From: Flavobacteriales bacterium
GTDB lineage: Bacteria; Bacteroidota; Bacteroidia; Flavobacteriales_F; PHOS-HE28
Assembly: GCA_041391825.1 (NCBI GenBank)
Contig: JAWKNF010000008.1
Span: 36,943 to 100,942, forward strand
Direction of reading: 5' to 3'
Length of the DNA: 64,000 nt
Positions 3,624 to 48,828 of the stretch are shown here, piece after piece. The notes below the pieces were generated by a model that saw nothing but the letters and a program-made list of their open reading frames with translations, was not told where the DNA came from and did not search any database. The position numbers and the translations under genes are program-made. Numbering within the stretch: the first letter of the stretch is position 1; each line of letters opens with the position of its first letter.

Positions 3624-3734
3624 TATTGCTCCGGGACGCCCGTGATCGAACGGCCTCTGATGCTGACCGCTGAAGGGGCCGTTCGTGTATCCTTTCGAAC
3701 GGCCGGAGGAATGCTTCGGACGGTAGCGCTCGGT

Positions 3735-7528: not shown

Positions 7529-7579
7529 TGCCTTTGGAGATCCGGGAATTCCGGCTCTGCGAATGCTGATGTCACTTCT

Positions 7580-8305
7580 TCATCGTCGTGCTGTCAACTC
7601 TCCTTCGATCTGTTCCATCAACACGAGGATCCGCTCCTCGAAGCCTTGATAGATCCGGACCATATGTCCCGCGTGAACACGTTCATGCGCACCACGCCTT
7701 TGAACGGGTTGTCGTCCATGAGCTACGGGATCGATGGGGTAGCCGCTCTTCCAAACGGTGTCCATCACCACCTTGGCGTAAATGTGCGGCCCAGATCGAC
7801 CAGGCTGAAGATGCGAATCGAATCCTTGTTCCACCTTGTTCAGGTAGGTGTAGCGTTCAGAATACAGCGTCGTGATGCTGCGTCGCAAACTATCGTTCCG
7901 GATCAGGTCGAAGCCGATGCTCTTCAGGTTGTCGAGGCCGATGTATTGGGTGTGAGCACCGTGCTCCCGAACAGGTTCCCGTAGTGGACCCGCAAGCGAA
8001 TCATGGAAGGGCGTACGGTCCTCCAAATGCTTCAACACGGCCACATTCCCATTCAACAGGCGTTGGTTCATGCCGATGTTGTACCGGCAATCCTGAAGGT
8101 CCGCCTCCAGGTTGCTGCGCATCTCGGCCAATAGCCCGATTTCCTTGGCGGCTTCCTTGCGCCCGGCGTTCCAGTTGTTCAGCTGCAGGGCCAGGAAGAT
8201 CCCGATCACCACCAGTAGGATCTCGCCTACGGCGTATGTGAGGTAGCGTGTAACGCGACCCTTGGCCAGTAGACCTTGGCGGATCTGGCGGAAGAGGCGG
8301 GTCAT
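7580..8305 (-). CDS. DUF6090-like single-pass membrane protein, paralog 1 of a tandem array.
   Basis: Internal start MTRLFRQIRQGLLAKGRVTRYLTYAVGEILLVVIGIFLALQLNNWN gives the conserved N-terminal anchor. The ATGA overlaps the next paralog. Confidence 0.65.
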   Translation of the reverse strand: MTRLFRQIRQGLLAKGRVTRYLTYAVGEILLVVIGIFLALQLNNWNAGRKEAAKEIGLLAEMRSNLEADLQDCRYNIGMNQRLLNGNVAVLKHLEDRTPFHDSLAGPLREPVREHGAHTQYIGLDNLKSIGFDLIRNDSLRRSITTLYSERYTYLNKVEQGFDSHLQPGRSGPHIYAKVVMDTVWKSGYPIDPVAHGRQPVQRRGAHERVHAGHMVRIYQGFEERILVLMEQIEGELTARR

Positions 8306-22554: not shown

Positions 22555-22592
22555 GGCCTATCCCAGCATCGAACGAACCAAGACCAAGAACC

Positions 22593-23288
22593 ATGAACCT
22601 CCTGAGAACGCAACAGCTTTCCAAGGTCTACCGCACGGATACCGTGGAGACCACCGCTCTGAACAACGTGGACATCGAGATCGCGCAAGGGGAGTTCGTG
22701 GCGATCATGGGTCCCAGCGGTTGTGGCAAATCCACGCTCCTGAACATCATCGGATTGCTCGATGCCCCTAGCAGTGGAAATTACTTCGTGAGCGGCGAGG
22801 ATGTCAGCGCATACAACGAGCGTAGGCGGGCCGAGCTCAGGAAGAACACCATCGGTTTCGTGTTCCAAAGCTTCAATCTGATCGATGAGCTGACCGTTGA
22901 GGAGAACATCGAGTTGCCATTGATCTACACGGACCTACCGAAGGCCGAACGCAAACTGCGGACCGAGGAGGTGATGCAGCGGATGAACATCACCGCACGT
23001 GCCAAACACTTCCCGCAGCAACTCAGCGGTGGCCAGCAGCAGCGTGTGGCCATCGCGCGAGCGGTGGTGAACCGTCCGAAGCTCATCCTTGCTGATGAGC
23101 CCACCGGTAATCTGGACAGTGCGATGGGCGAGGAGGTGATGGACCTGCTCGCTGAACTGAACAAGGCCGGCACCACCATCGTGATCGTGACCCATAGCAT
23201 GCGCGATGCCGGCTACGCACAGCGGACGATCAAACTGCTAGATGGACGGATCGTGGATGCTTCCGTACCCACGAGCGCACTGCTGTGA
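22593..23288 (+). CDS. ABC transporter ATP-binding protein (MacB/LolD-type).
   Basis: Walker A GPSGCGKST, signature LSGGQQQRVAIARA, Walker B ILADEPTGNLD. Confidence 0.9.
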   Translation: MNLLRTQQLSKVYRTDTVETTALNNVDIEIAQGEFVAIMGPSGCGKSTLLNIIGLLDAPSSGNYFVSGEDVSAYNERRRAELRKNTIGFVFQSFNLIDELTVEENIELPLIYTDLPKAERKLRTEEVMQRMNITARAKHFPQQLSGGQQQRVAIARAVVNRPKLILADEPTGNLDSAMGEEVMDLLAELNKAGTTIVIVTHSMRDAGYAQRTIKLLDGRIVDASVPTSALL

Positions 23289-23338
23289 AGAAGAGGGAAT
23301 TGGAACCCGATGGATGCTAGCAACGGAACCCGAACATC

Positions 23339-25774: not shown

Positions 25775-25786
25775 TCCCTGGTCGCC

Positions 25787-33186: not shown

Positions 33187-33963
33187 ATGAAGCAAACTCC
33201 TTTTCCTCTTGGGTTTCTACCCGCTTCGGGTGCATTCGCACAGCTCCCCAACGGGAGCACGGCACCAGACTTCACCCTCACCGACTACTACGGCACCACG
33301 CACAACCTGTATGCCTACTTGGATGCGGACAAGACCGTGTTCGTGGAGATCTTCGCTGCCCATTGCCCCACGTGCTGGGCCTACCATCAGACGCACCGGC
33401 TGAAGAACATCTACGAGCAGTACGGCCCCGATGGTACGGATGAATTGATGGTGCTGGCCTTGGAGCACGATCCCTGGAACGACTCCACCGCCTTCACCGG
33501 GAACCATGAACCGTGGGTAACGGCAGGGGATTGGTTGACAAGTACCCCATACCCGATCTTCAACGTGGAGGATCCGGATCGCGGGGTGTTCACGGACTAC
33601 AACGTCACCTACTACCCGGTGATCTACAAGATCTGTCCGGACCGGATCCTGGAGCGTGTGTTCCCCTCCGAAACGGAAACACAGCTCTACCAGAAAGTGG
33701 AGGAATGCCAGTTGTTCGCCGCGATCGAAGAGGGGCCGGACCTGGGCCTGATCCGCGTCGATCCGCTCTCGCGCAGCCTGATCATCGATCGTTACCAGGA
33801 GGTGCAGGGGCTGGAGGTGATGGACCTGCAAGGGAGGACCATCCGAAGCATCGGGGCCATCAACAGCTCGACCATACCGCTGGGTGAGCTTCGGACCGGG
33901 GTTTATCTGTTCCGCATCCGAACGGAGCGCGGGCCTGTGGTGAAACGCTTCGTGTTGGAGTAG
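33187..33963 (+). CDS. Thioredoxin-like (TlpA/redoxin family) thiol-disulfide oxidoreductase with a T9SS C-terminal sorting domain.
   Basis: Signal peptide; APDFTLTDYYGTTHNL...KTVFVEIFAAHCPTCW has the CxxC motif. The CTD reads GLEVMDLQGRTIRSIG...LGELRTGVYLFRIRTERGPVVKRFV. Confidence 0.75.
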   Translation: MKQTPFPLGFLPASGAFAQLPNGSTAPDFTLTDYYGTTHNLYAYLDADKTVFVEIFAAHCPTCWAYHQTHRLKNIYEQYGPDGTDELMVLALEHDPWNDSTAFTGNHEPWVTAGDWLTSTPYPIFNVEDPDRGVFTDYNVTYYPVIYKICPDRILERVFPSETETQLYQKVEECQLFAAIEEGPDLGLIRVDPLSRSLIIDRYQEVQGLEVMDLQGRTIRSIGAINSSTIPLGELRTGVYLFRIRTERGPVVKRFVLE

Positions 33964-33992
33964 GAGGACGGCCCTGCGGTCGGAGCGGCCTG

Positions 33993-35569
33993 CTACTGAA
34001 CGATCAACTTCTTCGCGAAGGAGCCATGGTCCGTACTGACCCGCACGAAATAGATGCCATGTTTCAGATCGGAAAGGTCGATCGACCCCCGATCCTGTTG
34101 CAGCACGAAGGACCGCAGTTCGTTGCCGAGCAGGTCCACTACTTGCACCATTGGTCGGGTCATACCGCTGAAGCGCGGGTAGTACAGCACCGTGCGGTCT
34201 TGGGCCGGGTTCGGGTACAGCGCGAAGGCATCTTCCGCATCCGACATGTCCGGACCCAGCGTTGTGTTTGTGTTGATCGTGACCGCTTGGGAGAAGTTGT
34301 TGGAGCAGTTCGAAGCATTGGTGTTGTTCACGACCACGTTCACAGTGCCGATCGGACCAGCACCCCAGTTGACATCGATGCTGTTGGTGGAGGAGGAGCC
34401 CGTTCCGCCGTCAACGATCCATGCATAGGTGTAGCTGGCGACCAGTGGAACACTGTATGTGGCCGACTGACTGCGCAACAGTGGCAGGGCCATCGATCAT
34501 CATGGAAGGTCGCGGAGCGCTGCCCAGAAGGCGTTGAAGTTGGCCCTGTTGGAAATTGCCCACGTACACGGTGTCGCTGGCGACATGGATCGCTTGTACG
34601 GTGCTCCACACGTTCGACGCACGAGGCGTTCTAACAGGTGGCCTGCGCGCATTGCTGATCCTGGATCTGCGTACACATAGCGTTTGTCCGCCCAGGAGGT
34701 AGGAGTTAAGCGCCACCCAGATGTAGTCGCCATCCGGTAGAGGCTCAGTGTTTCAAAGCTGCTGTTGTTCGGAGCGAAAGGGTCACGTTGCCGCTGAGGT
34801 CATAGGCCGCAACGCCTTGACGAGGTACCCCACCGACCATGTCGAAATCGCCACCCACGCAGAGGTGGTCGTTCGTGGCGCACGATGGCCGTGACCCTGA
34901 AGCGAGCCATCAATGGTCCGGACAGGTGGCTGTCCAAGGCCCCGGTGAGCTTGTCGAAACGACAGAGGTCGCCGTACACGAGGCTGGTACAAGCTGAACT
35001 GCCCACCCACGTACACATGGTCATCGCCCACATGCACGGCATTGATGTTCGGCCCGCCGGCACTGAAATCCGGGGAGCCTCTGCCATCCGGTGGCCAAGC
35101 CTGTGGCATCCACGGCAACGAGCCTCGAAGGGTTCAGCTTGCAGTAACAGAAGGTGCTGTCTTCCACACCAACGCCTTGCCTCCAGGAAATGAAATTCGC
35201 ACTGTCGTCTACCTGTTCTGTTGCCCGTGGCCAGGTCGAACATGCAAATGCCCAGTCTGGGCTGGCTGTTCACGGTCTGGAATGGATTCCACCGACCATC
35301 AGTTTGTCCGCCACCCCGTTGATGGAGGTGACCGTGTTCGTGATATCCGTCGGGCTCCAGGCATCGAGTTCGTTGGTGGTGGCGCTGGAAGGGCCAGGCC
35401 AGCGCGGAACGCCATCGACCATGCTGAATTGCTCACCGATGTAAACGGTATTGCCGACCTTCTCGATGGCGTACACATCCGTGTTCGGTACAGGCCCGCC
35501 GAGCAGGGTTTGCGAGGGCGGCAAATGAGAGGGAACAGAGCAGGAGGGTAAGGAGGGTCTGGCGTGCAT
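33993..35569 (-). pseudogene. T9SS cargo protein with beta-propeller-type repeats and an Ig-like region, broken by many frameshifts.
   Basis: N-terminal signal peptide MHARPSLPSCSVPS... then VYAIEKVGNTVYIGEQFS, with NAVHVGDDHVYVGGQFS repeats in other frames. The C-terminal piece carries YAWIVDGGTGSSSTNSIDVNWGAGPIGTVNVVVNN and the T9SS CTD ALYPNPAQDRTVLYYP...GIYFVRVSTDHGSFAKKLIV. At least five frame changes are seen. Confidence 0.55.
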
Positions 35570-35707
35570 GGAGCCTGTACGTGCAAGACGGGCAATGGAG
35601 GATGGTTGTGCGGGCGGCCACGCCTTAGTCGCGCTTCTTCACACCCTGATAGAGGCCCAGCAGCTCGTCAAGCACTCAGATAGGGAATGCGCCAACGCAC
35701 AAGGCCA

Positions 35708-35790
35708 GCGCATTTTGCAAGACCAACCTATGTCCCGGCGCAGCCGACCACAGCGCGCATTTGCATAGGCTGTGACAGTCTTGCAGCACA
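35708..35790. repeat. Hairpin (inverted-repeat) element TTTTGCAAGAC...TGCATAGG...GACAGTCTTGCA, copy 1 of 3.
   Basis: Shares the TTTGCAAGAC-(C)CTATGTCC...GCATTTGCATAGG...GACAGTCTTGCA skeleton with copies at 44596-44680 and 45160-45235. Confidence 0.6.
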
Positions 35791-36499
35791 CAACCCATCA
35801 ACACCTCCCATCGCGATGCACCCCACTGGTCCCGCTCACCTCGTCCTGAGCTTCTTCACCGCTGCTGCAAGCACGCCTCAGGTCGAATTCGCCCGCGTTC
35901 AGCGCGTCCAAGCGAAGTGTAGCGCAAGGGCCAGCGTGCCGAGGTCCTCGTAGGGGCCACTGCTCACCCTCTCCATGGCGCGATTCTGACCGTCATTTTG
36001 ATGAGTACCCATTTGCCCTGGGTAAGTCCCGCCAGCTGTATCAGGCGCAATCGATACTTCCAGTTCCGTGCGGGTCATGGCGGTGCGGATCCTTCAAAGG
36101 ACGAGAACGCGGCTTTGTTGCGGATAAGGCGCCGTTGCTGCCGTCGTAGACCGACCGCGCTTATCGCATGTTCTAACCGTCGTGCGCTATGTGCAAGTAG
36201 CATCACGCATTGCACATACACAGCTACATCATGCGCCAGTCGTCGGCAGGTGGCCGCAAAGCGGGGATGTCCACGATCAGCGCGGCCGCGTCCGGCTCGG
36301 GGTCTTGTGCTGCGAGCCAGTGCGAGCTTGGACTGGCTTTGGTAGCCTGCCCCGGGCCCGACTCCGGGGTGGCGCCTTTTTTGATGGAAGCCCTGGCAGA
36401 ATTGATGCGGGGCCGGCGAAGCAAAAGGTGAAGACAATAGCGGACACCAAACTGCAGGCATTGCCCACACAGCATTGTCATCCATCACCAAGCATGCGG

Positions 36500-36915
36500 A
36501 TGCACTGTCACTTCGCACTGCTTGGTCCGCCACGTAGCACTGTTGGGTCCGTCACGTAGCACGTGGTGCTCCGTCACTTAGCACTGGTTGGTCAATCACT
36601 TACACTGCATCCATCAGGCAGCACTGGGTGGTCCATCACTTAAGCACTGGGTGGTCCACCACTTAGCACTAGGTGGTCAGGGACCACTCTACACTGGGTG
36701 GTCCACCACTTGAAGACTGGGTGTCCACCACTTAGCACTGGGCAATGCACCACTCAGCACTGGGTGGTCCATCACTTAGCACTGGGTGGTCCACCACTTA
36801 CACTCAGGTGGACCACTTAGCACTGGGTGGTCCACCATCAGTATTGGTGGTCGACCACTTAGCACCGGGGTGGTCCATCACTTAGCACTGGGTGGTCCAT
36901 CACTTAGGCCTGTAT
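36500..36915. repeat. Tandem array of about 18 imperfect 22-bp units, consensus CACTTAGCACTGGGTGGTCCAY.
   Basis: Read directly: ...cacttagcactgggtggtccat cacttagcactgggtggtccac cacttagcact... Copies are more degenerate at the left end. No ORF is present and the unit length is not a multiple of 3. Confidence 0.85.
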
Positions 36916-37975
36916 GCCGCCGTGCACGCCCCCGCTTATGGTAGTTTCCGATAGCATTATAGGACTTTCCAGTTACCGTATCGGCAACGGCGATAGGCCG
37001 CATGTCCTGTGCACGAGCGCCGCGCGAGGGACGCCATGGAATTCACCAGCGGCCGAAAAACCAAGAACGCCATGAGAGCGAACATCAAGACGGACTTGCC
37101 AACATGCTGCCCCCAGCCTTGCTGGCCTTCTTCAACCACATCATCGCGAAGCTCACCGGCAATCGCGACGTTCCTCAATCCGCCCATGTCCATAGTGGAT
37201 ATGACCACCCGGAAGTTGCCGCAGACTGCCATCTCCGCCGCCATCGATGGCAACAGCACCGACCGCGCCCACCGCAACGCCGTGGTGAAGGAGGTGCAGG
37301 ACGTGCTGCGCATCACGGCGGGGATCATGCGCGCGCCGAATGCGAGCGGCGACGCCGAGCCTGCTCACCACCGGCGGCTACCCTGGCCAAACAGCCCGAG
37401 ACGTACACGGAGTGTGGCATCCCCAAGAACGCAGCGCCAGTGCCACTGATGTAAGCGGCGAGGGTGAAGCTGTGGTGGGCTGCACGCAGGCCGCGCGCAT
37501 GTTCCGCATCGAACAGGCTTTCACCAGTGACCCCACCCTGGGCGAGACCACCCAGCCAACGTAGCAGGGGTGAGCCGCCAGCGCGTTTCACCGTTCCGGT
37601 CCTCTACGCCTGGCAGCTACTTCTAATTCCGCATCATCGCCATGGGCATCGACAGAAGGCCTACTGGCTGACGGCACTGGGCTGCCCCAGATAGCTCGGT
37701 ACCCCAGTCCTGACATGCCAGCCCCGGCACCGAAGAGGAATGCGGAGGTGGCGGGGTTATTGCGTTAGCTGCAATACCCACGCCAGCCTGCCGTAGCCAA
37801 TGGCCTTTAACCCGCCGGGCGTCTGTTGGTGACGAATGCCTGTATGGACGTTACAAAAAGCTTATGCAAGAAGAAGCATTATCGGTTGTAGTGTTGTAGT
37901 GGCTTGTCAGTAACTGTGTGGAAAGGCTTTGTATTTGGGATATTACTAGCGAACATTTGTCTCCATCTTAGCGCA

Positions 37976-39322
37976 ATGCGCTTTGTCGATTTATTCGCCG
38001 GTCTAGTGGCTCACGTTGGGCTCGAACGACTTGGACACGAGTGTGTCTTCGCGAGTGAGTTGGACCTGATGTTACAGGACGTGTCTATGAAAAGAATCAT
38101 GGTATTCGTCCAGTAGGTGATATTCGAAAGGTGAAATCTGGGCGATGTGCCCGAACACGACATTCTATGTATGCTTCCATGCCAACCATTTTCTAAGGCG
38201 GGAGAACAAGCTGGATCTGATTGTCTACGAACGGCTCACTTCGATGAAGTTCATCGGGTAATCCGATACCGTAAGCCTGAGTACGTCATCCTTGAGAATG
38301 TCCCGAATCTGCGGCACTCACGATGATGGGCGTACATGGGCATCAATCAAACAGAGCCTTGAGTAGGCTCGGATACGCGGTTGCAGAATGTATCTACTCG
38401 CCGCATGAGTTTGGCATAATTCTGATCTGAAAGCGACTGCCGCCCGTTGCTAAGCGAGACGAAGGGTTCTGCTGGCCGAAGCGACCTGTGAACCTGTCGT
38501 CGTTGCGCAACATTCTTGACAAGGAGCCAATTGGTGCCCGACCACTCAGCCCCAGTTGTAGACTGTCTGGAAGTATGGCAGGACTTCTTGAATCGAATAC
38601 CCAAGGACGCCCCATTTTCCAGTCATGGTCGATGGAGTTCGGTGCGACGTACCCTTCGAGGAGCAGACGCTGTTCTCTAGGCAGCGAAGGGCTTAGGCAT
38701 ATCGAGGGGCGCAAGGTATGAGACTTGACAGAAGAGATATTCCAGATGCGTTCGAGGCGCTGCTATCTTATGCGCGCACTGAGGACGACCAGTTCCCAGC
38801 TTGGGAAGCGAGCGTTCATAAGGCCGAACCGAGCGTTCTATCAGAAACACAAACGAGAACTGAAATCGTGGTTGCTGGAGATCCTCCGCTTCCCACCGTC
38901 GCCGCAGAAGTTCGAGTGGAATTGTAAGGGAGGTGAGCGCGATGTTTGAAGTATGATCCAGTTTCGGCCTAGGCGCGTGCAACGACCTGACACGAGTCCT
39001 TCATTGGTCGCAATGATCACTACACAGGTTCATCATCGGCTGGGAACGCTACATGACCACTAATGAATGCGCTCAATTACAATCGTTTGGACTGCTGAAG
39101 CATCTGCCCTCCACTGGAACGAAAGCCTTTAAGGCGTTTGGCAATGCGGTGAATGCAAGGTTGGTGGCCAACGCTGGCGAACTTCTTGATGCCCATCAGG
39201 ATGCTGCACCATCCGCTACGAAGCCAATCAGGCAGAGCACCACTTACTGCTCGCTTGATATGTATCTTCTTTACTATGGACGTCAATATCCGCCCAGGGG
39301 TCAATATTCTTTCTGTACTTAA
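37976..39322 (+). pseudogene. C5 cytosine-specific DNA methyltransferase (Dcm-type), heavily frameshifted and stop-interrupted, inside a low-GC segment.
   Basis: Motif I MRFVDLFAGL...GLERLGHECVFASELD; motif IV QPFSKAGEQAGSD in a shifted frame; motif VI ILENVPNL; motif X LTTNECAQLQSFGLLKHLP...AFKAFGNAVNARLVA. No single frame stays open for more than about 90 aa. Confidence 0.7.
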
Positions 39323-39344
39323 TACCTGAGCTATAAGCATTGGT

Positions 39345-40481
39345 ATGCTCGGCGAGTTCGTCGACAATGCAGTCAACAGCGGCATAGAGCGCAATTGGAA
39401 TCGACTGCAATCGATGCATGGTCAAGGTTACAAGCTGCGCGTGGACATTGAGACGATAAGAACGACGGTGTGTCGCATCGTTATCTGCGACAATGCTGCT
39501 GGCATCGCTTCTGTCGACTACCAACGTGCTTTTCGGACCGCAGAGATACCAATTGATCGTACTGGTTTCTCTGAGTTCGGGATGGGGATGAAGAGTGCTG
39601 GCTTCTGGTTCACCAACACATGGACTGTCCGCACAAAAGCCATTGGTGAGAACCGTGCAGGCAAGATTTATTTGATCTAGCCAGGGCATCATGGATGGTG
39701 GTCTTGAGACTCTGCCGGTGGAAGAGGAGCTCGCGAAAATGGAGGAGCATCATCGAGTTGGTACTTCTTTCGGCCAGCTAAGATGGTCAAGAGACCATTG
39801 GAAAGATTTCAAGGAGCATCTCACGAGCATCGCCAGTTCCTCAATGTGAGGGGAAGCTGGAGATATATTATGACGGCGAGTTGCTCCACTATGAAGAACT
39901 TAAAATTCTGGAAGCGGCTAATCCCAGAGACCCCGGGCAAAGTGGTCGTCTGAAGAAGCAAGTGGACGTCCGACTTGCAGGCAACAAGCGCATACACGGG
40001 TTCGTAGCGATTCGCGAGGAAGCGAAGCTGTCGTGGAGGCTTGGATTGGCCTTGTTCCGTCGCGGTCGGTCGATCTTGGGGAGCGGGGATGGCTATCGAC
40101 TCCACTTCCGTGTTCGGACAACCTAACAGTTAGTCGCTATCAACGGCATTCAAGAACTACACGTCGAAGGCTTTGGAGTAAGCCATACAAAGGATGTTAT
40201 CCAGTGGGAACATTCCCGAAGAGGACTTCGTTGGTTCTCAGGAAGTGATTGATGCAGAGCCGTTGCCGATTTTGAAGATGGCGGAAGAATACCGCGCACG
40301 AACAAGGACCACGAGCATTGTCCGAGCAGCACAATCTGCAGCAGCGTCAACGGCGCAAGCTTCTGGCGCGGCGCAAGCGATCATCGATGGCCAGCGACAT
40401 GAGCAAAAGCTGTTCCTAGCCCACTGCCAGTATCGCTTCCTTTGTCAGTTGAGATACCTGCAACCAAAGAGTTCAAATTGA
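39345..40481 (+). pseudogene. GHKL-type ATPase (HATPase_c_3/MORC-like), frameshifted after about 110 aa.
   Basis: N-box EFVDNAVNSG, G1 box ICDNAAGI, G2 box FGMGMKSAG in the first 111 aa. Downstream pieces continue in other frames. Confidence 0.55.
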
Positions 40482-40815
40482 CTTTTCTCGTATCAGGAGT
40501 GGCTCGTCACTATCGATCTGGCGAACGATTCTGCAATAGAGGACTGGCTGGATATATCGCAGAACCAAAGGAGCGATAGGCAGCGCCAATTGAAAATTCG
40601 CGTGAACCTTCGCGCATCCGTTCATGCAACGGTTCAGTGGGGCATCCGGGGAACAGATCGAGCTCATGTTGCGCGTTGCGGGCTGCGTTAGCCATTGCAG
40701 AGACTATTGCTCGATGTTGGGGTTCGACAAGCGGGTACTATCAGACAGCATAAACGAGTTGCCCAGAAGTTGCCCTTATGCGCCGAGCGAGACGAACGAC
40801 TAACAGGTGGCATGA

Positions 40816-42400
40816 GTGATATTCAACTTGATTGAACCAAACATGGCATCTTCTGGTGTTGGCTGGGTACCTGCAATTGGGCAGGAGACCGAAGATCTTC
40901 TTGAACACTTCAAGGGGAAGTTGGACGAAGTGCAGGGAGCGAGAACCTCATTGAATCAACGACTCGGATTTCGGCCAATGCGCTCTAACAGTTGGCCCTG
41001 CAGACAACAGCAACCGGTCTGGTAGCTGGATATGTTCAGAGCGGCAAGACGATGTCCTTTACGACCGTGGCTGCGATGGCAGTGGACAACGGCTATCCAG
41101 TGGTAATTGTAATAACTGGCACGTCCAACGACCTATATCGACAGTCCGCACAGCGACTTGAACAAGACCTCTGCCTTCATTCGCGCTTTGACCGCAAGTG
41201 GCAACATCTGCAAGAACCAAGACAGAACGAAGGTGACCGCATCAGCAGGATACTCCAGATTGAGGACCCTAGCGTGCCAATTCCTTGATCGACAGATACT
41301 TTGTTACAATCAAGAAGAACTGGAGTGTGCTACGGAGGCTGATCACTTTGCTGCGCCAATGCGACCTGAACGGAATTCCTGCTTTGATCATCGATGACGA
41401 GGCGGATCAGGCGAGCTTGAACACTAGAGTGAACGATGACGATGAGAGCGCTACTTACGCCCGTATTCGTGGGCTCCGAGGTTTATTCCCCTGTCAAGCA
41501 CCTTTCTGCAGTACACTGCTACGCCGCAAGCCAATCTACTCATCAACATCCTTGATAGCCTTTCTCCCGACTTTGTTGAGTTGCCAACACCCGGTGAAGA
41601 CTACTCCGGTGGTATCGAGTTTTTCGGTGATGACTCCAGGTCTCGTTCGCGATATACCCGTGAACGAACTACCTGCGCGGAACAACCCTGCACCTGAGGT
41701 TCCTGAAACCTTGATGGAAGCGATGCGTGTGTTCTTCCCGCTGGTGTGGCTATCGGCACATTAAGGGTGAGGCGCGTCAGGGCAAGAACCGCAGCATGTT
41801 GGTACATCCATCTCGAGAAACCAATCCACAGGGGTACTATGCACAATGGGTCAGGCATCTCAAGCGCCACTGGAAGCGGACTCTTTCTCAGCCGGAGGGC
41901 ACCAGGACGATAGGAGTTACTCGAGGACTTCAAGTCGGCGTTTGATGATATCGCCCAGACTGTTCCCGAGGACTGCCGACATGGGAGGAAGTCTCCAATG
42001 CATTGTGCCGGGCGATTGCAAAGACCGATAGCGGGGAAGTGAACTCAACCACGCGTTTGGTGGCTGATACCAATTACATCAGACTATGCGCGGATACTCA
42101 TTGGCGGCTACACTCGATCGGCTTCACAATTGAAGGTCTAACGGTGACTCATATGCCGCGAGGACTTGGGTCTATGGAACTGCTGACACGCTGCAACAGC
42201 GTGCTCGCTTCTTTGGTTATAAACGGAGCTATTTGGGGTATTGCAGGCTGTACTTGGATGCTGGCGTCCGAGATGCCTTCATTGACTACGTGGAGCACGA
42301 GGAGAGCATACGAAGAATTGAATGACCTCAGAACGCGACAAGTGCCGTTGAAGCAATGGCGGCGGGCGTTCATCTGTCTCTCCTGATTGCAAACTCACGC
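40816..42400 (+). pseudogene. Z1-domain-like P-loop NTPase, the kind of protein typically linked to C5-MTase genes; multiply frameshifted.
   Basis: LQTTATGLVAGYVQSGKTMSFTTVAAMAVDNGYPVVIVITGTSNDLYRQSAQRLEQDL is a Z1-type Walker A segment. It is followed by ...GIPALIIDDEADQASLNT (Walker B/DEAD-like) in another frame. Confidence 0.5.
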
Positions 42401-44504
42401 GGAGAAACGTTCTTTCGTTGACCATCTCCGTGATGGCGGCGACCGGTGGTTCTGGGTGAAGGCTCCGCATGCATCTATGGACTTGTGTGGCGAACCGAAT
42501 TGCATTCGACTTTTACCGACCGGCACAGTTTCTGGAACCACCTCGGCGATCTTTCGGTGCTGCTGCCACGCGGTACATGGGGTTGCTGGATTGGCGCTCA
42601 GTGACGTTTGCGAGCAGCTTCTTTTCTCAGAGGCGTTCCGAACCTGAAGAGAATCAGAAGTACGGGGTGCCTTCCAGATTGATAGGTTCCTCAGAGAGCA
42701 TCCGCATGAGCTATGCGATGTCTACATCATCTGACCGGACGATAGTGCACGATGCCGCTAACGACAAGCAGGAGATCGATAACATTTTTCAGCTCGAATA
42801 GACAGGAAGGTGATCCGCAGTACTACCTTGGTGACAGAGAAATTCACGCAGAGAGATTGACTATTCAATTGCGGCGCTTGACATTGACCCAGAACGGGGC
42901 AGAGATCAAGCACAGACATTCCGGTGCTGGCAATCTGGGTGCCTGGTTCTATGGAGCAGCAATGGCTTGTTCAATGACTAGTTGATGAAGGAGTTGCTCA
43001 AAGCGTTTGAGTTCCCTTCCTGCCTGCGTGATTCTTCTGCGGGGTTGTTCGCATTTCATACCCTCCTTGCTCTTTCCCAAGGCCCGGTTCCTCATTGCGA
43101 AGACAACTTCTTGTGTGAGGCATGCATGCTCATAGGTACGGCTGCATCCTTGGCTACACTTCCACCGCCTTTACGGTTAGAGAATCCTCACCGTTCAGCA
43201 TGTACTGACGGTCGAGTTCATAAGTTATATGGCTGCGGGTACATTCTCTGTGGTTCTTCGCAATAGCCAGCGTTCATTGGTAGAGATGTTCGTCAGGTTT
43301 TGCGGTTGTTGCTACGCATCAACTTCCTGGGACCCCATAGCGGCTGATGCGGCTTCCCACATCCAGAGGCTCGTCCTCTTCGCTTCTTCAGCACCTGCGC
43401 AAGCCAAGCACCAAGACCATTCAAGGGCTTTGAGTGAACTCTTTCTATCGCTACACGAGATAACCCTGAACGGGTCAATGGATGGCATGTGCATCCAATG
43501 GGCCTGCACGATTTCATCTTGAAGAAATTCGCTGAGGCTAACATGCCTCATAAGGTTAGTCGCATCGCTTTTCGCACAATCAACTTTCTCCACCAAGGGG
43601 GGGCATCGCTCTTCGTAGCGTCAGTGCTAATGGAACGATCCGGTCAGGGTATATCAGTGTTCGACCTGCCGAGAGGGCGCATGCACGCCTTTCTCCCAAT
43701 GCCTCACTTCTTCTTGATAGCACGCATCAATAATTTCAACGCTTGGTCTCGACTACGTGAAGTGTTGGCGGAAATCACCTGACGCTGCCTGCGCAGCAGA
43801 CTCCACTCCTCTTCTTTCCTTGGATGTGGTGCCACGCCTGTCCGCTGACACTCCCGAGCGGGTTACTGAGCATCTCCTACACCGTCAGATTATTTGACTT
43901 GACGGCGAGCCGGATTTGGTCGTTGCGTGAGCGACCGCAGCGAAAATCCCGCAAGCGTCCAGTATATTTAGGCGCGCCCAAACCTTTAAAATGTTGCCCG
44001 TGTCCAGTCACTTCAATTTTGGTCCATACCTTCCGCACCATCGTCAGCATCGCAGCAATAGCCACCGTCTCGCCGGCTGTAAAGTCGTTTATTCAGGAAT
44101 CTGTTCTTGCCAGTAGTGCAGGTGCTCCTTATAGCCGTTCCTTTCAGGGTGTTCCAAGTCCAGCATCCGCCTAGCGCCGCATCAAACGCCGCCAACTGTT
44201 CGCTTTGCACAACTCGATGAGTCTTCGTAAAGAGCATACTCGCCGTAGAGATGGAAGATGGTGTTGCCGAAGGTCCTGTCAGCTGCCCCTTGCTGACTGG
44301 TCTCGAGGCTGCAGTCCGCGAGTTCAGTTTTCAGCCATCCGGCATCGTTGTGGAGCATAGGAATCGTCGCTTGAGCAATGCTTCGGAAATGGGCATAGGT
44401 TCCGATGTCAACGAGCACGCTTCTCATCGATCTCCTCAACGCTCGCGGACCTTGCGTTTGAGGTTAAAGACGACGACATCCCACCATATCGTGCAGTCAG
44501 TTTT

Positions 44505-44770
44505 GGATAGAGCTTTCACCATGGTCAAGATCGTCGCTGTCGCCACCGTCTCCCGGTCTCATCCACATAAGAATGCTTCCGCGCATGCGGCCCGCGCTTT
44601 TTGCAAGACTGTCCTATGTCCTATGCAGCCCACCACGGGGTTCGCATTTGCATAGGACATCAGACAGTCTTTGCATCGTACAACATCAGCGCCGATCGAG
44701 TTTCCGGACCATGGTAAGAATAGTGGCAATGGCAACCGTCTCCCTGTTTCATCCACCACATCCACCAGCC
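44505..44770. repeat. About 260-bp repeat block, copy A. It contains the hairpin element and two copies of the sub-motif GCGATGGCAACCGTCTCCC-GTTTCATCCAC.
   Basis: Direct comparison with 45085-45350 shows the same order of sub-motifs at roughly 80% identity. A further partial sub-motif copy lies at about 44055. Confidence 0.7.
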
Positions 44771-45084
44771 ACTTCATGAGCCCTTGGTCTTATAGTTGAA
44801 CTTCTCACTAACAGGACCATGGTCACGAGGAAGTGAGTCCCGATGGCAATTAACAAATAGAACCACCACACAAGTGCATTGCCTCTCGAAAGAGCGAACA
44901 GTCCGTACAGAAGAGGAGTTAATTGTACAGTGCCAGGATGACCAGATGGCGGAAGATGGTTGTTTCGACTCCTGCTGCGTGCGGCGAGTGCGAAAACTGC
45001 CGCCCTCAGCAATAGATAGCCGACGAGTAGCCGACCAGGTCATCCCCGCATGGTCTCATCCGTTCTGATCCAACTTCCCCACCG

Positions 45085-45350
45085 TCGTCAAGACGTCGCA
45101 ATGGCCACCGTCTCCCGGTCTCATCCACAAAAGAAGAAGCCCGCGCACAAGGCTCAGTAAGCGTAAGACTGTACCATGTCCTATGCGCCCAGCATGGGGC
45201 TCAGATTTGTATATAGACACCGGACAGTCTTGGTATCGTACTGCTCATCGCCCTCCGATCGAGCTTCCGGACCATGGTAAGAATAGAAGGCGATGGCAAC
45301 GGTCTTCCAGTTTCGTCAACACATCCACCAGGAACTTCACAATGCCTGTC
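45085..45350. repeat. About 260-bp repeat block, copy B.
   Basis: See copy A. Confidence 0.7.
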
Positions 45351-45399
45351 GCGATGTCTGCACCTCCTTAGGGGCTGTCCTCGGTCTTCGGCTTCTTCT

Positions 45400-47250
45400 C
45401 CCGATCCACCTCTCTTTCACCGTGAACTTCACTTGATCACGGCGCCGGGGTATACTGGCTTGCGAAGCGGGCTTCCTCGACGCCGTAGTTCAGCAGCACC
45501 GGCCCTTTGGCGCATCCACGAAGAGCATGCGCGGCTGAGGATGAAGTGCTGTGCGCCACACGTCCGGTGAAGATGGTGCCGTCCAGGCGTTCTCGTCCAT
45601 GTGGGCGTAGAACTTGTCGCGCACGAGGTCCGCGAAGTTGTTGATGTCGTCCAGCGTCACGGTGTGCTTCTCGCCATCACGGTATCGCCCACCCGCACCG
45701 AAGTGCAATGCGGAAGGTGTGCTTCGGTGTAATCGTTTGCTTGGCACTTGTTGGTACTGTTGCGTGAGCGCGGTGATGGTGGTGGGGCTGCTCGATGGCG
45801 GTGTTGCAGTGCAGCACGCCGCGCTTGCCGCCCATCTCCTGGCCGCCACCCGCGCGACCAGGACCGCCGTGGCCAGCGTGGCCAAGGGTGAGCTTTCGTG
45901 GCCGGTGTTCTCCTTCGCCATGTCGCGGTCGATCACCAGCATGCGGCCGTGGTGGCTCGCAGCACCCCACACGAACTGCTGTGCGATGCTGTCGTCGTAG
46001 GTCGCGATGCCGGTACAGAGGCTCTTGCCGAGCTTGGTGAGGGCCACGGCATCGTCGATGTCCTTGTAGGGCATCAAGGTGCTCACCGACCGAAGGCCTC
46101 GATGTTGTGGCTTCGCTGGTTCTTCCACGGGTCCTTGTTCAGCAGCAGGGATGGGGCTCGCGGCTGCACCTTCGCCGCATCGGCACCGGTCACTCTACGT
46201 TTTTCGGGTCGCCGTACACCGTACCGCCGCCCTTCATCAGTTCGGCGAGGCTGTCGCGCATCAGCAGTGTTGCGTCTGTCCGGCGAGGGCACTCATGGCG
46301 CACGCCTTCGGCACGCGGGTCACCGATCACCGTGCCGAGGCGCTTGCCCAGCGACCTGCACATCCTCCACCAGGTTCTCGGGCACCCGCGATGCGCCGCG
46401 CACCGGTGCAGCGCTGGCCGCACTTCGTCATCTCCTTGCCGACCTCCTCTGATGAAGAGCGTGAACTCCTCGGTATCCGGCGTGGCATCGGGACCGAGCA
46501 CGATGCTGTTCAAACTGTCGGCCTCCATGCCGGTGCCACGCTCTCGGCGATGATGCGCGGGTGGCTTTCAGCATGCGGCCGGTCTTCGCACTACCGGTAA
46601 AGGTGACGACGTCCTGGCTTTCGACACGATCGAGCAGATCACCGCACTACCCACTTCATCAGCTGCAACGCCCCTTCGGGCAAGGGATCTGCTTTCGACG
46701 ATCGCCTTCGCCATCGCTTCGCGAGGTAGCTCGTCACGGTAGCGGGCTTCACCACGGCGGGCATCCCGGCCATCCAATTCACGGCGCACTTCTCCAGCAT
46801 GCCCCAGATAGGGAAGCGAACGCGTTGATGTGCACGGCCACGCCCTCCTTCGGCACCATGATGGTGGCCCATGAACGTCCCGCCGGCGGCTGGTGAGCAC
46901 CGGTGGTCCATCCACATAGAAGGGCATGCTGAGCCTGCTTGCGCAAGCTGGCGTTGGCGAACACGTTGCCGATGCCGCCCTCGATGTCCACCTGCACTCG
47001 TCGGCCTTGGTGGCGCCGGTGGTAGGCCGCATCTTGTAGAACTCGTCCTTGCGGTCCATGAGGTAGAGCGCGAGGGCCTTCACATGCGGCCGCTCCGGGA
47101 AGGTCATCTTGCGCAGGGGAGGACCGGCCCACTTCGCGGGCGTAAGTGAGCATGGCGCCGAAGTCCAGGCCGCTGCTTGACGTTGTGGCGATGAGTTGCC
47201 GGTGGAGGCGTCCACCAATTCACTTTATTGCCGGTGCCGGCACCCAGTGG
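45400..47250 (-). pseudogene. PaaZ-like bifunctional aldehyde dehydrogenase / MaoC-hotdog hydratase gene, high GC, riddled with frameshifts.
   Basis: Minus-strand fragments: ALDH motifs FPIWGMLEKCAVNWMAGMPAVVKPATVTSYL, ...MAKAIVES... and GDPRAEGV. The C-terminal MaoC piece reads HTVTLDDINNFADLVRDKFYAHMDENAW. The pieces are spread over all three frames. Confidence 0.5.
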
Positions 47251-47339
47251 CCGGCGATGTAGTTCTGTAGCTGCATTGGTGCTAAGGTCGGGAGGAATCG
47301 GGGAACGGCAGAGGAATGCGAATACATCCGCGATCACGT

Positions 47340-48795
47340 AGAGAGCACTTCGCTACCGCTCGTGGGTGGGGATGGTCGGGAATACATCCATAGACACAGA
47401 CGCTCTTGCCAACGCTCGTGGTGCTGGATGGTCGGCCGTGACCGCCGATTACGTTGATGTAGGTATTCTGCTACCGCTCGTGGGTGGGGATGGTCGGGAA
47501 TACATCCACAGATGTCACATCACTTCGCTAACGCTCGTGTGCTGGGATGAGTTGAATGTAGATCCGCCAACATGTTGATGCACTCGCTACTGCCGTGCGG
47601 CGTTGCCGGGCAACTCATCAGGAAAGGCTGCCGTTAGGCAAGCGATCTGCGTAATCTGCATCAGTTCTTTCCTTGACCATCCACAGATGTCGCTGCATCA
47701 CTTCGCCAACGCCCGTGTGCTGGGATGGTTGGGGAACACATCCGCGGATTACGCAGAGGTACTCGCTACCGCTCGTGGGTGGGGATGGTCGGGAATACAT
47801 CCACAGATGTCACGCATCACTTCGCTAACGCTTGTGTGTTGGGTTGGTAGGGAATATATCCGCGGATTACGCAGGACCTGTCCTGCCTAGTGGGAGGCAC
47901 CGCTACCGCTCGTGTGGCATTGCAGGGTATCTCTTATCAGCAAAGGTTGCCGTTAGCAAGCCATTCGCGTAATCTGCGATCAGTCTCTTTCCTTGACCAT
48001 CCACAGATAACACAGATCACTTCGCTAACGCCGTGTGCTGGGATGGTTGGGAATACATCCGCGGATTACGCAGAGGTATCGCTACTGCTCGTGGGTGGGG
48101 ATGGTCGGGAATACATCCACGGATGTCACGCATCACTTCGCTAACGCTTTCGTGTGTTGGGCTGGTAGGGAATACATCCGCGGATTACGTAGAGTAGACT
48201 CGCTACCGCTCGTGGGTGGGGATGGTCGTAAATACATCCACAGATGTCATTGCATCACTAACGCTCGTGTGCTGGGATGGTCGGGTCGTAGATCCGCCGA
48301 TTGCGCTGATGCACTCGCTACCGCTCGTGTGGCATTGCAGGGCATCTCATCAGGACAAGGCTGCCGTTAGGCAAGCCATCTGTGTCATCTGTGGATCGTT
48401 CTTATTCTTCCTTGATCATCCACAAATGTCACGGATCACTTCGCCAACGCTCGTGTGCTGGGATGGTCGGGTCGTAGATCCGCCGATTACGCTGATGCAC
48501 TCGCTACCGCTCGTGGGTGGGGATGGTCGGGAATACATCCACAGATGTCACGGATCACTTCGCTAACGCTCGTGTGCTGGGATGGTTGGGGAATACATCC
48601 GCGGATTACGCAGAGGTACTCGCTACCGCTCGTGTGGCGTTGCCGGGCAACTCATCAGGAAAAGGCTGCCGTTAGGCAAGCCATCTGCGTGATCCCGATT
48701 CTCGGGACAGGTCCTGCGGATCGTTTCTTTTTCCTTGACCATCCACAGATGTCACGGATCACTTCGCTAGTGCTCGTGGCTGGGATGCGTTGAAC
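47340..48795. repeat. Complex higher-order tandem repeat of about 1.45 kb. It alternates about 59-bp X and Y units (CGCTCGTG..GGGATGGTCGGGAATACATCC...) with interspersed about 125-bp Z units.
   Basis: More than 20 units read directly from the sequence. Each unit has the GGATG-N10-CATCC mini-hairpin. Y units carry the palindrome TCCGCGGA. Z units share GGCATTGCAGGGCATCTCATCAGGA-AAGGCTGCCGTTAGGCAAGCCATCTG. There is no consistent reading frame. Confidence 0.85.
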
Positions 48796-48828
48796 GTAGC
48801 GGCCTCCGGGCGTGCGGATGATGGGGCG

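What the first reader, a model, noticed from the sequence alone, without database searches (positions are those of the whole stretch)
37850..44500. Low-GC island carrying decayed remnants of a Dcm-linked defence module: C5-MTase, GHKL ATPase and Z1-domain P-loop protein
GC content drops visibly (roughly 48% versus above 60% flanks) from about 37.85 kb. Three recognisable genes follow in one orientation, each shattered by frameshifts and stops. They are a C5 cytosine methyltransferase (motifs I, IV, VI and X all identifiable), a HATPase_c_3-type GHKL ATPase, and a Z1-like P-loop protein (GYVQSGKT ... IIDDEADQ). Z1-domain proteins and HATPase_c_3 ATPases are described in domain databases as genomically associated with C5-MTase genes in poorly characterised restriction or abortive-infection-like systems. 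Here the whole module appears to be a fossil. The remaining roughly 2 kb (42.4-44.5 kb) has only short ORFs and may hold the missing nuclease or AIPR partner.
Basis: partly seen in the sequence, partly recalled or inferred. Interest (0 to 1): 0.65.

Follow-up and report, generated by a model that had tools for sequence, protein, structure and literature searches.

The report
Defence cassette shattered by sequencing errors
The low-GC island holds a complete four-gene methylase-linked restriction-like cassette of a widespread but untested kind, and its apparent decay is most likely a 12.8-kb stretch of uncorrected long-read sequence in a metagenome-assembled genome, not a biological fossil.

Summary
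At 37,957-43,934 the + strand carries a C5 methyltransferase, a GHKL ATPase and a P-loop/Z1 protein, all broken by frameshifts and stops. GC is about 52% against a 58% background.

The "missing partner" is a DUF4420 PD-(D/E)XK nuclease at 42,967-43,930, not AIPR. The Z1 gene runs on to 42,977. Intact copies of the same four-gene cassette (83-87% nucleotide identity) occur in other Flavobacteriales contigs. A more distant intact allele (67%) sits at the same site, downstream of paaZ.

The damage is probably not biological:
- The same density of small indels (1 per 43-57 nt, none above 7 nt, 176 events) also shatters the native paaZ gene on the opposite strand.
- It shatters the 5' two-thirds of a native T9SS gene, then stops abruptly at 34,476 inside that gene.
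- Single-base deletions ignore homopolymers.
- Substitutions are flat across codon positions and not AT-biased.
- They show a 2.4-fold transition asymmetry tied to the contig strand, as in raw nanopore reads.

Verdict: an ordinary member of a recognised Dcm-GHKL-Z1-DUF4420 neighbourhood, sitting in a low-accuracy stretch of a MAG. Genuine decay is not excluded (about 15%).

The parts
34476..47300 (.). Low-accuracy block. Small-indel density is 1 per 43-57 nt, against 0-1 per 500-950 nt outside it. The left edge lies inside the T9SS gene. The right edge lies between 47,242 and 47,470.
   Evidence: Indel counts against homologues inside and outside the block are. The last indel of the T9SS gene is at 34,476, followed by 483 nt with none. 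Two 49-nt repeats at 47,470 and 47,765 are 100% identical. The chance of that at 7% error per copy is 8e-4.
37957..43934 (+). Four-gene cassette, collinear with the intact cassettes L001, L003 and L004. Homology stops within about 20 nt of the outer gene ends.
   Evidence: blastn places L001 300-6372 on window 37,957-43,934 at 85.6% identity. L003 to L006 align at 83-87%.
37976..39258 (+). C5 cytosine DNA methyltransferase (442 aa when intact). It has 23 indels and 3 nonsense codons as written.
   Evidence: Pfam PF00145 scores 81.5 bits. After frame correction it is 85% identical to L001 at the amino-acid level. The intact homologue scores 221.6 bits on TIGR00675 and is M.HhaI-like, E 1.5e-51.
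39276..40803 (+). GHKL (HATPase_c_3) ATPase (512 aa when intact). It has 29 indels.
   Evidence: Pfam PF13589 hits. After frame correction it is 88% identical to L001. The fragment 39,345-39,680 is deposited as MEZ4739326.1 'ATP-binding protein'.
40812..42977 (+). P-loop/DEAD-Z1 helicase-like protein (731 aa when intact). It has 33 indels and 3 nonsense codons.
   Evidence: Pfam Z1 hits two frames. After frame correction it is 92.3% identical to P0001. PADLOC calls it 'Type II helicase domain protein' at 173.5 bits. The best fold matches are SF2 helicases.
42967..43930 (+). DUF4420 PD-(D/E)XK nuclease (317-323 aa when intact), the 'missing partner'. It has 19 indels.
   Evidence: tblastn mapping is. 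Counts are (19 indels; 3 nonsense codons and 78.9% identity after frame correction). The intact homologue scores 94.6 bits on PF14390. D184 and E193-V-K195 are invariant in 7 homologues.
44030..45128 (-). Four partial copies of the paaZ 3' end (44,030-44,076, 44,515-44,566, 44,708-44,783, 45,066-45,128), together with copies of the paaZ-downstream spacer and hairpin. These look like att-like scars of insertions.
45257..47298 (-). Native paaZ gene (688 aa when intact, GC about 64%), shattered by 45 window-specific indels.
   Evidence: It aligns at 84% nucleotide identity to L007.
33996..35640 (-). Native T9SS-sorted beta-propeller protein gene (538 aa when intact). The 5' 1.15 kb is shattered. 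The 3' 483 nt are clean.
   Evidence: The Por_Secre_tail domain is in the clean ORF.
35795..37956 (.). Left part of the inserted island. It has no recognisable gene. It contains a 22-nt tandem array (36,509-36,907) and a 64-66% GC segment (37.0-37.75 kb). Segment 35,685-35,794 repeats the paaZ-downstream spacer found at 44,571-44,684.

Best explanation
The window comes from a Flavobacteriales metagenome-assembled genome. About 9.5 kb of foreign DNA is inserted between the native paaZ gene and a T9SS-protein gene, at the 3' end of paaZ.

Shown:
- All four genes are present, collinear and full length relative to intact homologues.
- The frameshifts belong to a 12.8-kb block (34,476 to about 47,300) that also covers native genes on both sides.

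Inferred (about 80%): the block is uncorrected long-read sequence, probably a minus-strand nanopore read used to span a strain-variable, repeat-flanked island. On this reading the cassette in the real organism is intact.

Inferred by analogy (not tested): the intact cassette works as an ATP-dependent restriction-modification system.
- The methylase marks host DNA.
- The DEAD-Z1 motor translocates on unmarked DNA, as H.CglI does.
- It activates the PD-(D/E)XK nuclease.
- The GHKL ATPase acts as a dimerising clamp or switch, as in the MzaB-MzaC-MzaD core of the Mza anti-phage system.
For: Source. Flanking proteins are exact matches to MEZ47392xx-MEZ47393xx of a Flavobacteriales MAG contig of 177,481 nt.

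Cassette.
- Intact Dcm(442)-GHKL(512)-Z1(731)-DUF4420(317-323) cassettes occur in L001, L003, L004, L005 and L006.
- A 67%-identity allele occurs in L015 and L002.
- The window aligns end to end with L001: 5,978 nt against 6,073 nt, with no large deletion.

The damage is not gene-specific.
- Indel density is 1 per 57 nt in the cassette, 1 per 43 nt in paaZ and 1 per 44 nt in the T9SS 5' part.
- Outside the block, and between intact homologues, it is 0-7 events per 0.5-6.7 kb.

Sharp edge. The T9SS gene has 27 indels up to 34,476 and then none in its last 483 nt (P = 1.2e-5).

Error-like spectrum.
- 176 indels, none above 7 nt, mean 1.84 nt, with deletions about twice as frequent as insertions.
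- Single-base deletions fall in homopolymers no more often than chance.
- Window-specific substitutions are flat over codon positions in paaZ (49/39/44). In the cassette pos3 is 0.42, against 0.65-0.73 on the branches of intact copies.
- Pyrimidine transitions exceed purine transitions 2.36-fold on the + strand (243 versus 103, p = 3.5e-14). This holds in both the + strand cassette and the minus-strand paaZ.
- There is no AT bias.

Match to raw nanopore reads (PMC8486125).
- Deletions exceed insertions.
- Total error is 6-8% and higher at high GC.
- A<->G errors in the read strand are 3-5 times transversions and exceed C<->T errors.

No independent copy. The shattered ORFs exist only in this MAG's NCBI record.

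Function.
- NCBIfam finds MzaB, MzaC and MzaD similarity.
- PADLOC calls the Z1 protein a 'Type II helicase domain protein'.
- The DEAD-Z1 motor is characterised in CglI (PMC5861437, PMC4267653).
- The D...EVK nuclease motif is invariant in DUF4420 homologues.
- The best fold matches of the Z1 protein are SF2 helicases, including HsdR.
Against: - No read data, coverage or assembly method were available, so the artefact is inferred from pattern only.
- The flat, error-like substitution component (about 4.6% per site in the cassette, up to 6.6% in paaZ) is higher than the 1.2-2.2% mismatch rate reported for HAC-basecalled raw reads. Older basecalling, or the aligner turning insertion-plus-deletion pairs into mismatches, would have to account for the excess.
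- Nine nonsense codons, a damaged methylase motif I and a damaged nuclease EVK motif are equally what real decay would give.
- The transition asymmetry is not significant in the T9SS 5' part (43 versus 34).
- No error-free copy of exactly this allele was found in GTDB representatives or JGI contigs.
- A sharp edge could also arise from homologous recombination next to a truly decayed segment.
- The mechanism of the intact cassette rests wholly on analogy. Its proteins score far below the Mza cut-offs, and it lacks the CglI-type PLD nuclease.
Confidence: 0.78

Rival explanations
1. Genuine biological fossil. The whole paaZ-island-T9SS region, including the four-gene cassette, has been non-functional for some time in this lineage and has accumulated neutral substitutions and small indels.
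For: - Window-branch substitutions lose the third-position excess.
- Nine nonsense codons remain after frame correction, mostly C>T at CGA or CAG codons.
- Catalytic motifs are damaged.
- Deletions outnumber insertions, as in bacterial pseudogenes.
- No intact copy of exactly this allele was found.
Against: - Three unrelated units (foreign cassette, native paaZ, native T9SS gene) would need the same apparent age: indel density 1 per 43-57 nt.
- The decay stops abruptly inside the T9SS gene (P = 1.2e-5).
- None of 176 indels exceeds 7 nt, and the cassette keeps 98% of its length. Old bacterial pseudogenes carry larger deletions (established knowledge).
- Single-base deletions are not enriched in homopolymers.
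- There is no AT-biased mutation. In paaZ, AT>GC exceeds GC>AT per site.
- The 2.4-fold transition asymmetry follows the contig strand, not gene orientation.
Confidence: 0.15
2. In vivo localised hypermutation, or import of a damaged segment. A strand-asymmetric mutagenic process (for example error-prone synthesis on one strand), or recombination with a degraded donor, hit exactly this 12.8-kb stretch.
For: - The block has a sharp boundary.
- The substitutions are strand-coordinated across oppositely oriented genes.
- The location is a recombination or insertion hotspot with repeated paaZ 3' ends.
Against: - About 6-9% change per site, with 1.7-2.3% indel events, is far beyond any single known mutagenic event.
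- Both directions of the pyrimidine transition are raised (C>T and T>C), which deamination does not explain.
- The profile matches a sequencing-platform error model instead.
Confidence: 0.05

Closest known systems
CglI / NgoAVII ATP-dependent restriction-modification systems (M + R + H/N subunits)
   Same: Both have a C5 methyltransferase gene next to a P-loop/DEAD-Z1 helicase-like protein with Walker A, Walker B and a QxxR-type motif VI. In CglI this motor hydrolyses ATP, translocates on dsDNA and is required for cleavage by a separate nuclease subunit (PMC4267653, PMC5861437). PADLOC's REBASE-derived 'Type II helicase domain protein' model hits the Z1 protein at 173.5 bits.
   Different: The nuclease partner here is a DUF4420 PD-(D/E)XK protein, not a PLD-plus-B3 R-subunit. 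An extra GHKL ATPase gene is present. The Z1 protein has no detectable sequence match to any solved chain.
Mza anti-phage system (NCBIfam MzaB ATPase, MzaC Z1-domain protein, MzaD PD-(D/E)XK motif protein)
   Same: The same three domain types occur in the same gene order: GHKL ATPase, then Z1 protein, then PD-(D/E)XK protein. Each of the three hits the corresponding Mza model as its only or best NCBIfam hit. PADLOC MzaC also hits.
   Different: Scores are far below the equivalog cut-offs: 23.8 against 850, 144.4 against 1500, and 25.8 against 420. The cassette has four genes, with a Dcm methylase in place of further Mza components. PADLOC has no model that hits its GHKL or DUF4420 proteins.
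Dcm + Z1 helicase + DUF4420 island of Corynebacterium diphtheriae BH8, and the Pfam-noted Z1/HATPase_c_3/methylase neighbourhood
   Same: Both combine a Dcm-like methylase, a diverged Z1 helicase and a DUF4420 protein in a strain-specific inserted island (PMC5379612). A dcm / ATP-binding protein / Z1 gene run is also annotated on a Hymenobacter plasmid.
   Different: The Corynebacterium island also carries an EcoRII-like endonuclease, and its methylase is fused to an HTH domain. No experimental work exists on any of these islands.
Raw Oxford Nanopore read error profile (Delahaye and Nicolas 2021, PMC8486125)
   Same: - Deletions exceed insertions.
- Indels are short.
- About half of the deletions lie outside homopolymers.
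- Total error is 6-8% and higher in GC-rich sequence.
- Transitions dominate, with A<->G in the read strand well above C<->T. This would appear as a C<->T excess on the opposite (+) strand, as observed.
   Different: The mismatch share here is higher than reported for HAC basecalling. The platform and assembler of this MAG are unknown to me.

Membership tests
C5 cytosine DNA methyltransferase (PF00145 / TIGR00675) | Profile match above the curated cut-off | tested here: met
   The window frame scores 81.5 bits on PF00145 against a cut-off of 22. The intact homologue L001 scores 221.6 bits on TIGR00675 against 100.65 and matches M.HhaI at E 1.5e-51.
C5 cytosine DNA methyltransferase (PF00145 / TIGR00675) | Catalytic motifs I (FxGxG), IV (PCQ), VI (ENV) and X (GNAV) intact in the window copy | tested here: inconclusive
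   PCQPFS, ENV and GNAV are present. Motif I reads FAGLVAHVG after a 3-nt deletion. This may be sequence error rather than biology.
DEAD-Z1 helicase-like motor (H.CglI prototype) | Z1 domain preceded by a P-loop domain with Walker A and Walker B, and a QxxR motif VI | tested here: met
   PF10593 scores 143.8 bits in P0001 and hits two frames of the window. GYVQSGKT and IIDDEADQ are present. The sequence DTLQQRARFFGY is present, with Q465, R466 and R468 invariant in 40 homologues. The best fold matches are SF2 helicases, although TM scores are low.
CglI/NgoAVII-type R-M system | Partner R-subunit with a PLD nuclease domain and a B3-like DNA-binding domain | tested here: not met
   All intact cassettes hold only DNA_methylase, HATPase_c_3, Z1 and DUF4420 genes.
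Mza anti-phage system | MzaB, MzaC and MzaD proteins reach the NCBIfam equivalog cut-offs | tested here: not met
   Scores against cut-offs are 23.8 against 850, 144.4 against 1500 and 25.8 against 420.
Mza anti-phage system | Full gene set, including components beyond B, C and D | tested here: not met
   The cassette has four genes and the first is a Dcm methylase. Homology to relatives ends at the cassette edges.
DUF4420 PD-(D/E)XK nuclease (PF14390) | Profile match and a conserved D...(D/E)xK core | tested here: met
   The L001 protein scores 94.6 bits against a cut-off of 27. D184, E193 and K195 are invariant in 7 homologues at 30-89% identity. The window copy maps at 42,967-43,930, but its EVK stretch is disrupted by indels.
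GHKL ATPase (HATPase_c_3, PF13589) | Profile match and Bergerat-fold motifs (ExxxN, DxGxG, GxxGxG) | tested here: met
   The window scores 34.8 bits against a cut-off of 25. GEFVDNAVNSG, DNAAGI and FGMGMKSAG lie in ORF 39,345-39,680.
Biological pseudogene cluster ('fossil') | Disruptions confined to the decayed genes, and spread along each dead gene | tested here: not met
   The same indel density is found in native paaZ and in the T9SS 5' part. It stops abruptly at 34,476 inside the T9SS gene.
Biological pseudogene cluster ('fossil') | Natural mutation spectrum: AT-biased substitutions, homopolymer-centred 1-nt indels and some large deletions | tested here: not met
   There is no AT bias, but a 2.36-fold strand-tied transition asymmetry. 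Deletions follow the background run-length distribution. The largest of 176 indels is 7 nt.
Biological pseudogene cluster ('fossil') | The same disrupted sequence seen in an independent assembly or in the reads | not testable with these tools
   The shattered ORFs are found only in this MAG's NCBI record. GTDB and JGI scans returned other alleles only. No read data were available.

The most novel reading that the evidence does not exclude
The block is real. On this reading, a strand-asymmetric, indel-rich mutational process (or simultaneous abandonment) destroyed in vivo a 12.8-kb insertion hotspot. The damage took in a four-gene defence cassette and both flanking native genes, and left a knife-edge boundary inside a gene. 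A milder and more likely reading is that the intact cassette is an untested ATP-dependent R-M system combining a GHKL ATPase, a DEAD-Z1 motor and a DUF4420 nuclease, which moves without an integrase between paaZ 3' ends.
Probability: 0.06. Interest if true: 0.75.

Novelty: new member of a known kind. Interest (0 to 1): 0.22.

Why it matters
Practical value:
- It is a caution. A "decayed defence island" in a MAG can be an unpolished long-read patch, and such patches are most likely exactly at strain-variable, repeat-flanked islands.
- Fragments of these genes are already deposited as separate proteins (for example MEZ4739326.1).

Modest biological value:
- The Dcm-GHKL-Z1-DUF4420 cassette is widespread. 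7,252 of the 8,000 scored candidates matched the Z1 protein query at E <= 1e-5.
- Its three non-methylase proteins have no sequence match among solved structures.
- PADLOC 2.0 has no model that hits its GHKL or DUF4420 proteins.
- The cassette recurs downstream of paaZ in related Flavobacteriales, together with duplicated paaZ 3' ends. This offers a defined empty site (L018) and occupied sites (the window and L015) for studying how such cassettes move.

Tried and rejected
1. Mycobacterium leprae-like pseudogene-rich genome, suggested by 58% GC and the many broken ORFs. Rejected: flanking proteins are exact matches to a Flavobacteriales MAG, and the rest of the window has long ORFs.
2. AIPR or another partner in 42.4-44.5 kb. 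Rejected: no Pfam hit on either strand. The stretch is the Z1 C-terminus plus DUF4420.
3. Integrase or other mobility gene in the island. None was found at 35.6-37.97 kb, in the 37.5-45.6 kb frames, or around the L015 cassette.
4. tRNA integration site. There is no tRNA in the window. Rfam finds nothing at 33-50 kb.
5. Independent copy of the same allele.
   - Exact look-ups of flanking window proteins failed.
   - The GTDB scan returned only the JTS-AC70 MAG, which is L004.
   - The JGI scan returned more distant alleles.
   - The shattered ORFs exist only in this MAG.
6. Locating the right edge of the block inside the 60-nt repeat array. This was inconclusive because the units are heterogeneous. 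The 100% identical 49-nt pair only shows that the block ends before 47,470.
7. Transcription-linked mutation asymmetry. Rejected: the asymmetry keeps the same contig strand in oppositely oriented genes.
8. Mismatch-repair-deficient mutator spectrum. Rejected from prior knowledge of such spectra, which would put indels in homopolymers and give a far higher transition-to-transversion ratio. Here the indels are not in homopolymers, and the ratio is only 1.75-2.4.
9. Literature search for Mza gene content. It gave nothing usable.


Full report
**Observation.** The composition drop is real but milder than stated. GC is 0.64-0.66 at 37.0-37.75 kb and falls to 0.486 at 37.75-38.25 kb. It then stays at 0.49-0.54 to about 45.2 kb. 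The window average is about 0.58. Stop-masked translations of the + strand hit Pfam DNA_methylase (81.5 bits), HATPase_c_3 (34.8 bits) and Z1 (two frames). The minus strand hits nothing. The quoted motifs are in the ORF list. No ORF in the region exceeds 160 codons.

**Source.** I first suspected a pseudogene-rich mycobacterium. Exact look-ups showed otherwise. The flanking proteins are MEZ4739293 to MEZ4739333 of a "Flavobacteriales bacterium" MAG, on a contig of 177,481 nt. Outside 34.5-48.8 kb the window has normal long ORFs.

**What the module is.** A stitched Z1 query found 7,252 relatives among the 8,000 candidates scored, the best at 80% identity (P0001, 731 aa).
- The contigs that carry it and its cluster mates (L001, L003, L004, L005, L006) all hold the same compact cassette: DNA_methylase (442 aa), HATPase_c_3 (512-517 aa), Z1 (731 aa) and DUF4420 (317-323 aa).
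- L001 positions 300-6372 align to window 37,957-43,934 at 85.6% identity. Homology ends within about 20 nt of the outer genes.
- tblastn and a global alignment place the genes as follows:
  - methylase, 37,976-39,258
  - GHKL ATPase, 39,276-40,803
  - Z1 protein, 40,812-42,977
  - DUF4420 nuclease, 42,967-43,930
- So the "unexplained 2 kb" is the C-terminal third of the Z1 protein plus a PD-(D/E)XK nuclease gene. No AIPR is present.
- Intact copies are 53% GC, so the low GC belongs to the cassette and is not a result of decay.

**The damage.** Against L001 the window has 104 indel events, 87 of them frameshifting. There are 68 deletions and 36 insertions, all of 7 nt or less.
- Intact cassettes that differ from each other by 8-15% have only 1-4 gap events.
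- After frame correction the four proteins are 85, 88, 92 and 79% identical to L001. Nine nonsense codons remain.
- On a four-sequence alignment, substitutions private to the window fall 105/111/155 on codon positions 1/2/3. Pos3 is 0.42, against 0.65-0.73 on the branches of intact copies.
- That fits about 99 constrained changes plus about 272 position-blind ones, or 4.6% per site.

**The damage is not confined to the module.**
- paaZ (47,298-45,257, minus strand, 64% GC, clearly native) aligns to three intact orthologues that have no gaps among themselves. It carries 45 private indels. Its private substitutions fall 49/39/44 on the three codon positions.
- A native T9SS-sorted protein gene (35,640-33,996, minus strand) aligns at 84% to L018. 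It has 27 indels between 35,630 and 34,476 and none in its last 483 nt (P = 1.2e-5).
- Control alignments just outside are clean: 33,188-33,974 against L018, and 21,476-28,193 against L002.
- On the right, indels continue to 47,242. Two 49-nt repeats at 47,470 and 47,765 are identical, which is unlikely at this error level (8e-4).
- The block is therefore 34,476 to about 47,300. The ORF-free 47.3-48.8 kb stretch is simply a non-coding array of 60/119-nt units.

**Natural decay or sequence error?** Several features point to error.
1. Three unrelated units show the same density of indels: 1 per 43-57 nt.
2. The block has a knife-edge inside a gene.
3. None of 176 indels exceeds 7 nt (mean 1.84). 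The cassette keeps 5,978 of 6,073 nt.
4. Single-base deletions hit non-repeated bases about as often as chance predicts. 12 of 25 (cassette) and 10 of 22 (paaZ) lie in runs of length 1, against a background of 0.55-0.56.
5. There is no AT bias. In paaZ, AT>GC transitions outnumber GC>AT transitions even though the gene is 64% GC.
6. Private transitions are strand-asymmetric. On the + strand the cassette has C>T 106 and T>C 77 against G>A 51 and A>G 28. The same + strand excess appears in paaZ, which is transcribed from the other strand: 60 against 24. Combined, 243 against 103, p = 3.5e-14. This rules out a transcription-linked cause.

A strand-aware study of raw nanopore reads reports just this profile (PMC8486125):
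- Deletions exceed mismatches, which exceed insertions.
- Total error is 6-8% and higher at high GC.
- About half of the deletions lie outside homopolymers.
- A<->G confusions in the read strand are 3-5 times transversions and exceed C<->T confusions.

A minus-strand read would give the observed + strand C<->T excess.

Points against the error reading:
- The mismatch share here is higher than that study's 1.2-2.2%.
- The asymmetry is not significant in the short T9SS segment.
- I had no reads.
- No error-free copy of this exact allele turned up. The shattered ORFs exist only as proteins of this MAG.

I put the artefact reading at about 0.8, genuine decay at about 0.15, and something stranger at about 0.05.

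**Setting.** L018 starts in the last 33 nt of paaZ and runs through a hairpin spacer straight into the T9SS gene. That is the empty site.
- In the window about 9.5 kb (35,795-45,257) lies between these two genes.
- The spacer is repeated at 35,685-35,794 and 44,571-44,684.
- The last 50-90 nt of paaZ recur at 44,030, 44,515, 44,708 and 45,066.
- L015 has an intact cassette of a different allele (67% nucleotide identity) at the same place and in the same orientation. It also has two paaZ 3' copies and a PIN-like gene.
- Other relatives carry other cargo downstream of paaZ.
- No integrase was found.
- A strain-variable, repeat-flanked island is exactly where a short-read graph breaks and a long read would be used to bridge it.

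**How the intact cassette probably works (inference).**
- The methylase is M.HhaI-like in its catalytic half.
- The Z1 protein has Walker A, Walker B and QxxR motifs that are invariant across 40 homologues. It hits PADLOC's "Type II helicase domain protein" model. Its predicted structure (mean pLDDT 74.9, pTM 0.52) finds SF2 helicases, including HsdR, as its best fold matches, though only weakly: E about 1e-4 and TM-scores of 0.13-0.19 on the query length.
- In CglI such a DEAD-Z1 motor translocates on DNA and licenses a separate nuclease (PMC4267653, PMC5861437).
- DUF4420 is a PD-(D/E)XK family (PMC3424549). D184, E193 and K195 are invariant in 7 homologues.
- The GHKL, Z1 and DUF4420 proteins hit MzaB, MzaC and MzaD respectively, in the same gene order, but far below the cut-offs.

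The most likely mechanism is an ATP-dependent restriction-modification system. Unmethylated DNA is tracked by the motor and cut by the PD-(D/E)XK subunit, with the GHKL ATPase acting as a dimerising switch. None of this was tested.

**Comparison and verdict.** By definition the cassette is neither a CglI-type system (it has no PLD/B3 subunit) nor an Mza system (scores and gene set both fail). It belongs to the Dcm-Z1-DUF4420(-GHKL) neighbourhood already noted by others (PMC5379612; Hymenobacter plasmid). It is a new member of a known but uncharacterised kind. The feature that made it look unusual, wholesale decay, is most likely not biological. Interest is low. The useful outputs are the corrected gene map, the warning about this contig, and the paaZ hotspot.

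Noticed in passing
window 44,030-45,330 and 35,685-35,794; L015 13,417-13,958; L018 1-256: The 3' end of paaZ looks like a recurrent insertion hotspot. The window has four extra copies of the last 50-90 nt of paaZ, plus duplicated spacer and hairpin. L015 has two copies next to an intact cassette and a PIN-like (DUF5615) gene. L018 shows the empty site, with paaZ, spacer and T9SS gene in direct succession. The copies differ mostly at codon third positions, as if each came in with a different element. No integrase was found.
   Followed up: partly
window 47,300-48,800: A 1.4-kb non-coding array of about 60-nt and 119-nt units of two alternating types, interspersed with a longer hairpin-containing unit. 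It has no Rfam match and no ORF.
   Followed up: partly
window 36,509-36,907: A tandem array of about 18 copies of a 22-nt unit (CACTTAGCACTGGGTGGTCCAC) inside the island. Copies match at 74% with 10% indels. Part of that heterogeneity may be sequence error.
   Followed up: no
window 37,000-37,750: A 64-66% GC segment between the 22-nt array and the low-GC cassette. It has no Pfam hit in any frame. Its origin is unknown and it may be a shattered native or foreign gene.
   Followed up: partly
L002 7,115-13,180 (GCA_016713875.1) versus window 21,476-28,193: A related Flavobacteriales MAG carries the other cassette allele next to an IS110 transposase and the MacB/FtsX-ABC-MFP genes. Those genes are syntenic (75% nt) with window 21.5-28.2 kb, so the cassette sits at a different site there. 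Its GHKL gene is split by a frameshift and its DUF4420 gene is called short, possibly also through assembly error.
   Followed up: partly
L012 2,288-8,106 and L013 3,846-6,625: Downstream of paaZ these relatives carry a different cargo: an 807-aa TPR protein, a 122-aa protein, an 827-aa HSP70/MreB-like protein, a DUF6804 protein and a MazG-like protein. This looks like another defence-type module at the same hotspot.
   Followed up: no
window 39,345-39,680; 46,190-46,528; 33,993-34,493: Fragments of the broken genes are deposited in NCBI as separate proteins of this MAG: MEZ4739326.1 'ATP-binding protein' (111 aa), MEZ4739328.1 hypothetical (112 aa) and MEZ4739322.1 T9SS sorting-domain protein (166 aa). 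Each is a singleton cluster.
   Followed up: yes
L019 (NZ_CP095048.1, Hymenobacter cellulosilyticus plasmid) 2,790-8,060: An isolate plasmid carries dcm, an ATP-binding protein, a Z1-domain protein and a 193-aa hypothetical protein. They lie beside HNH, HEPN and DUF262 genes and a tyrosine recombinase. This is a defence-island context for a shorter variant of the module.
   Followed up: no
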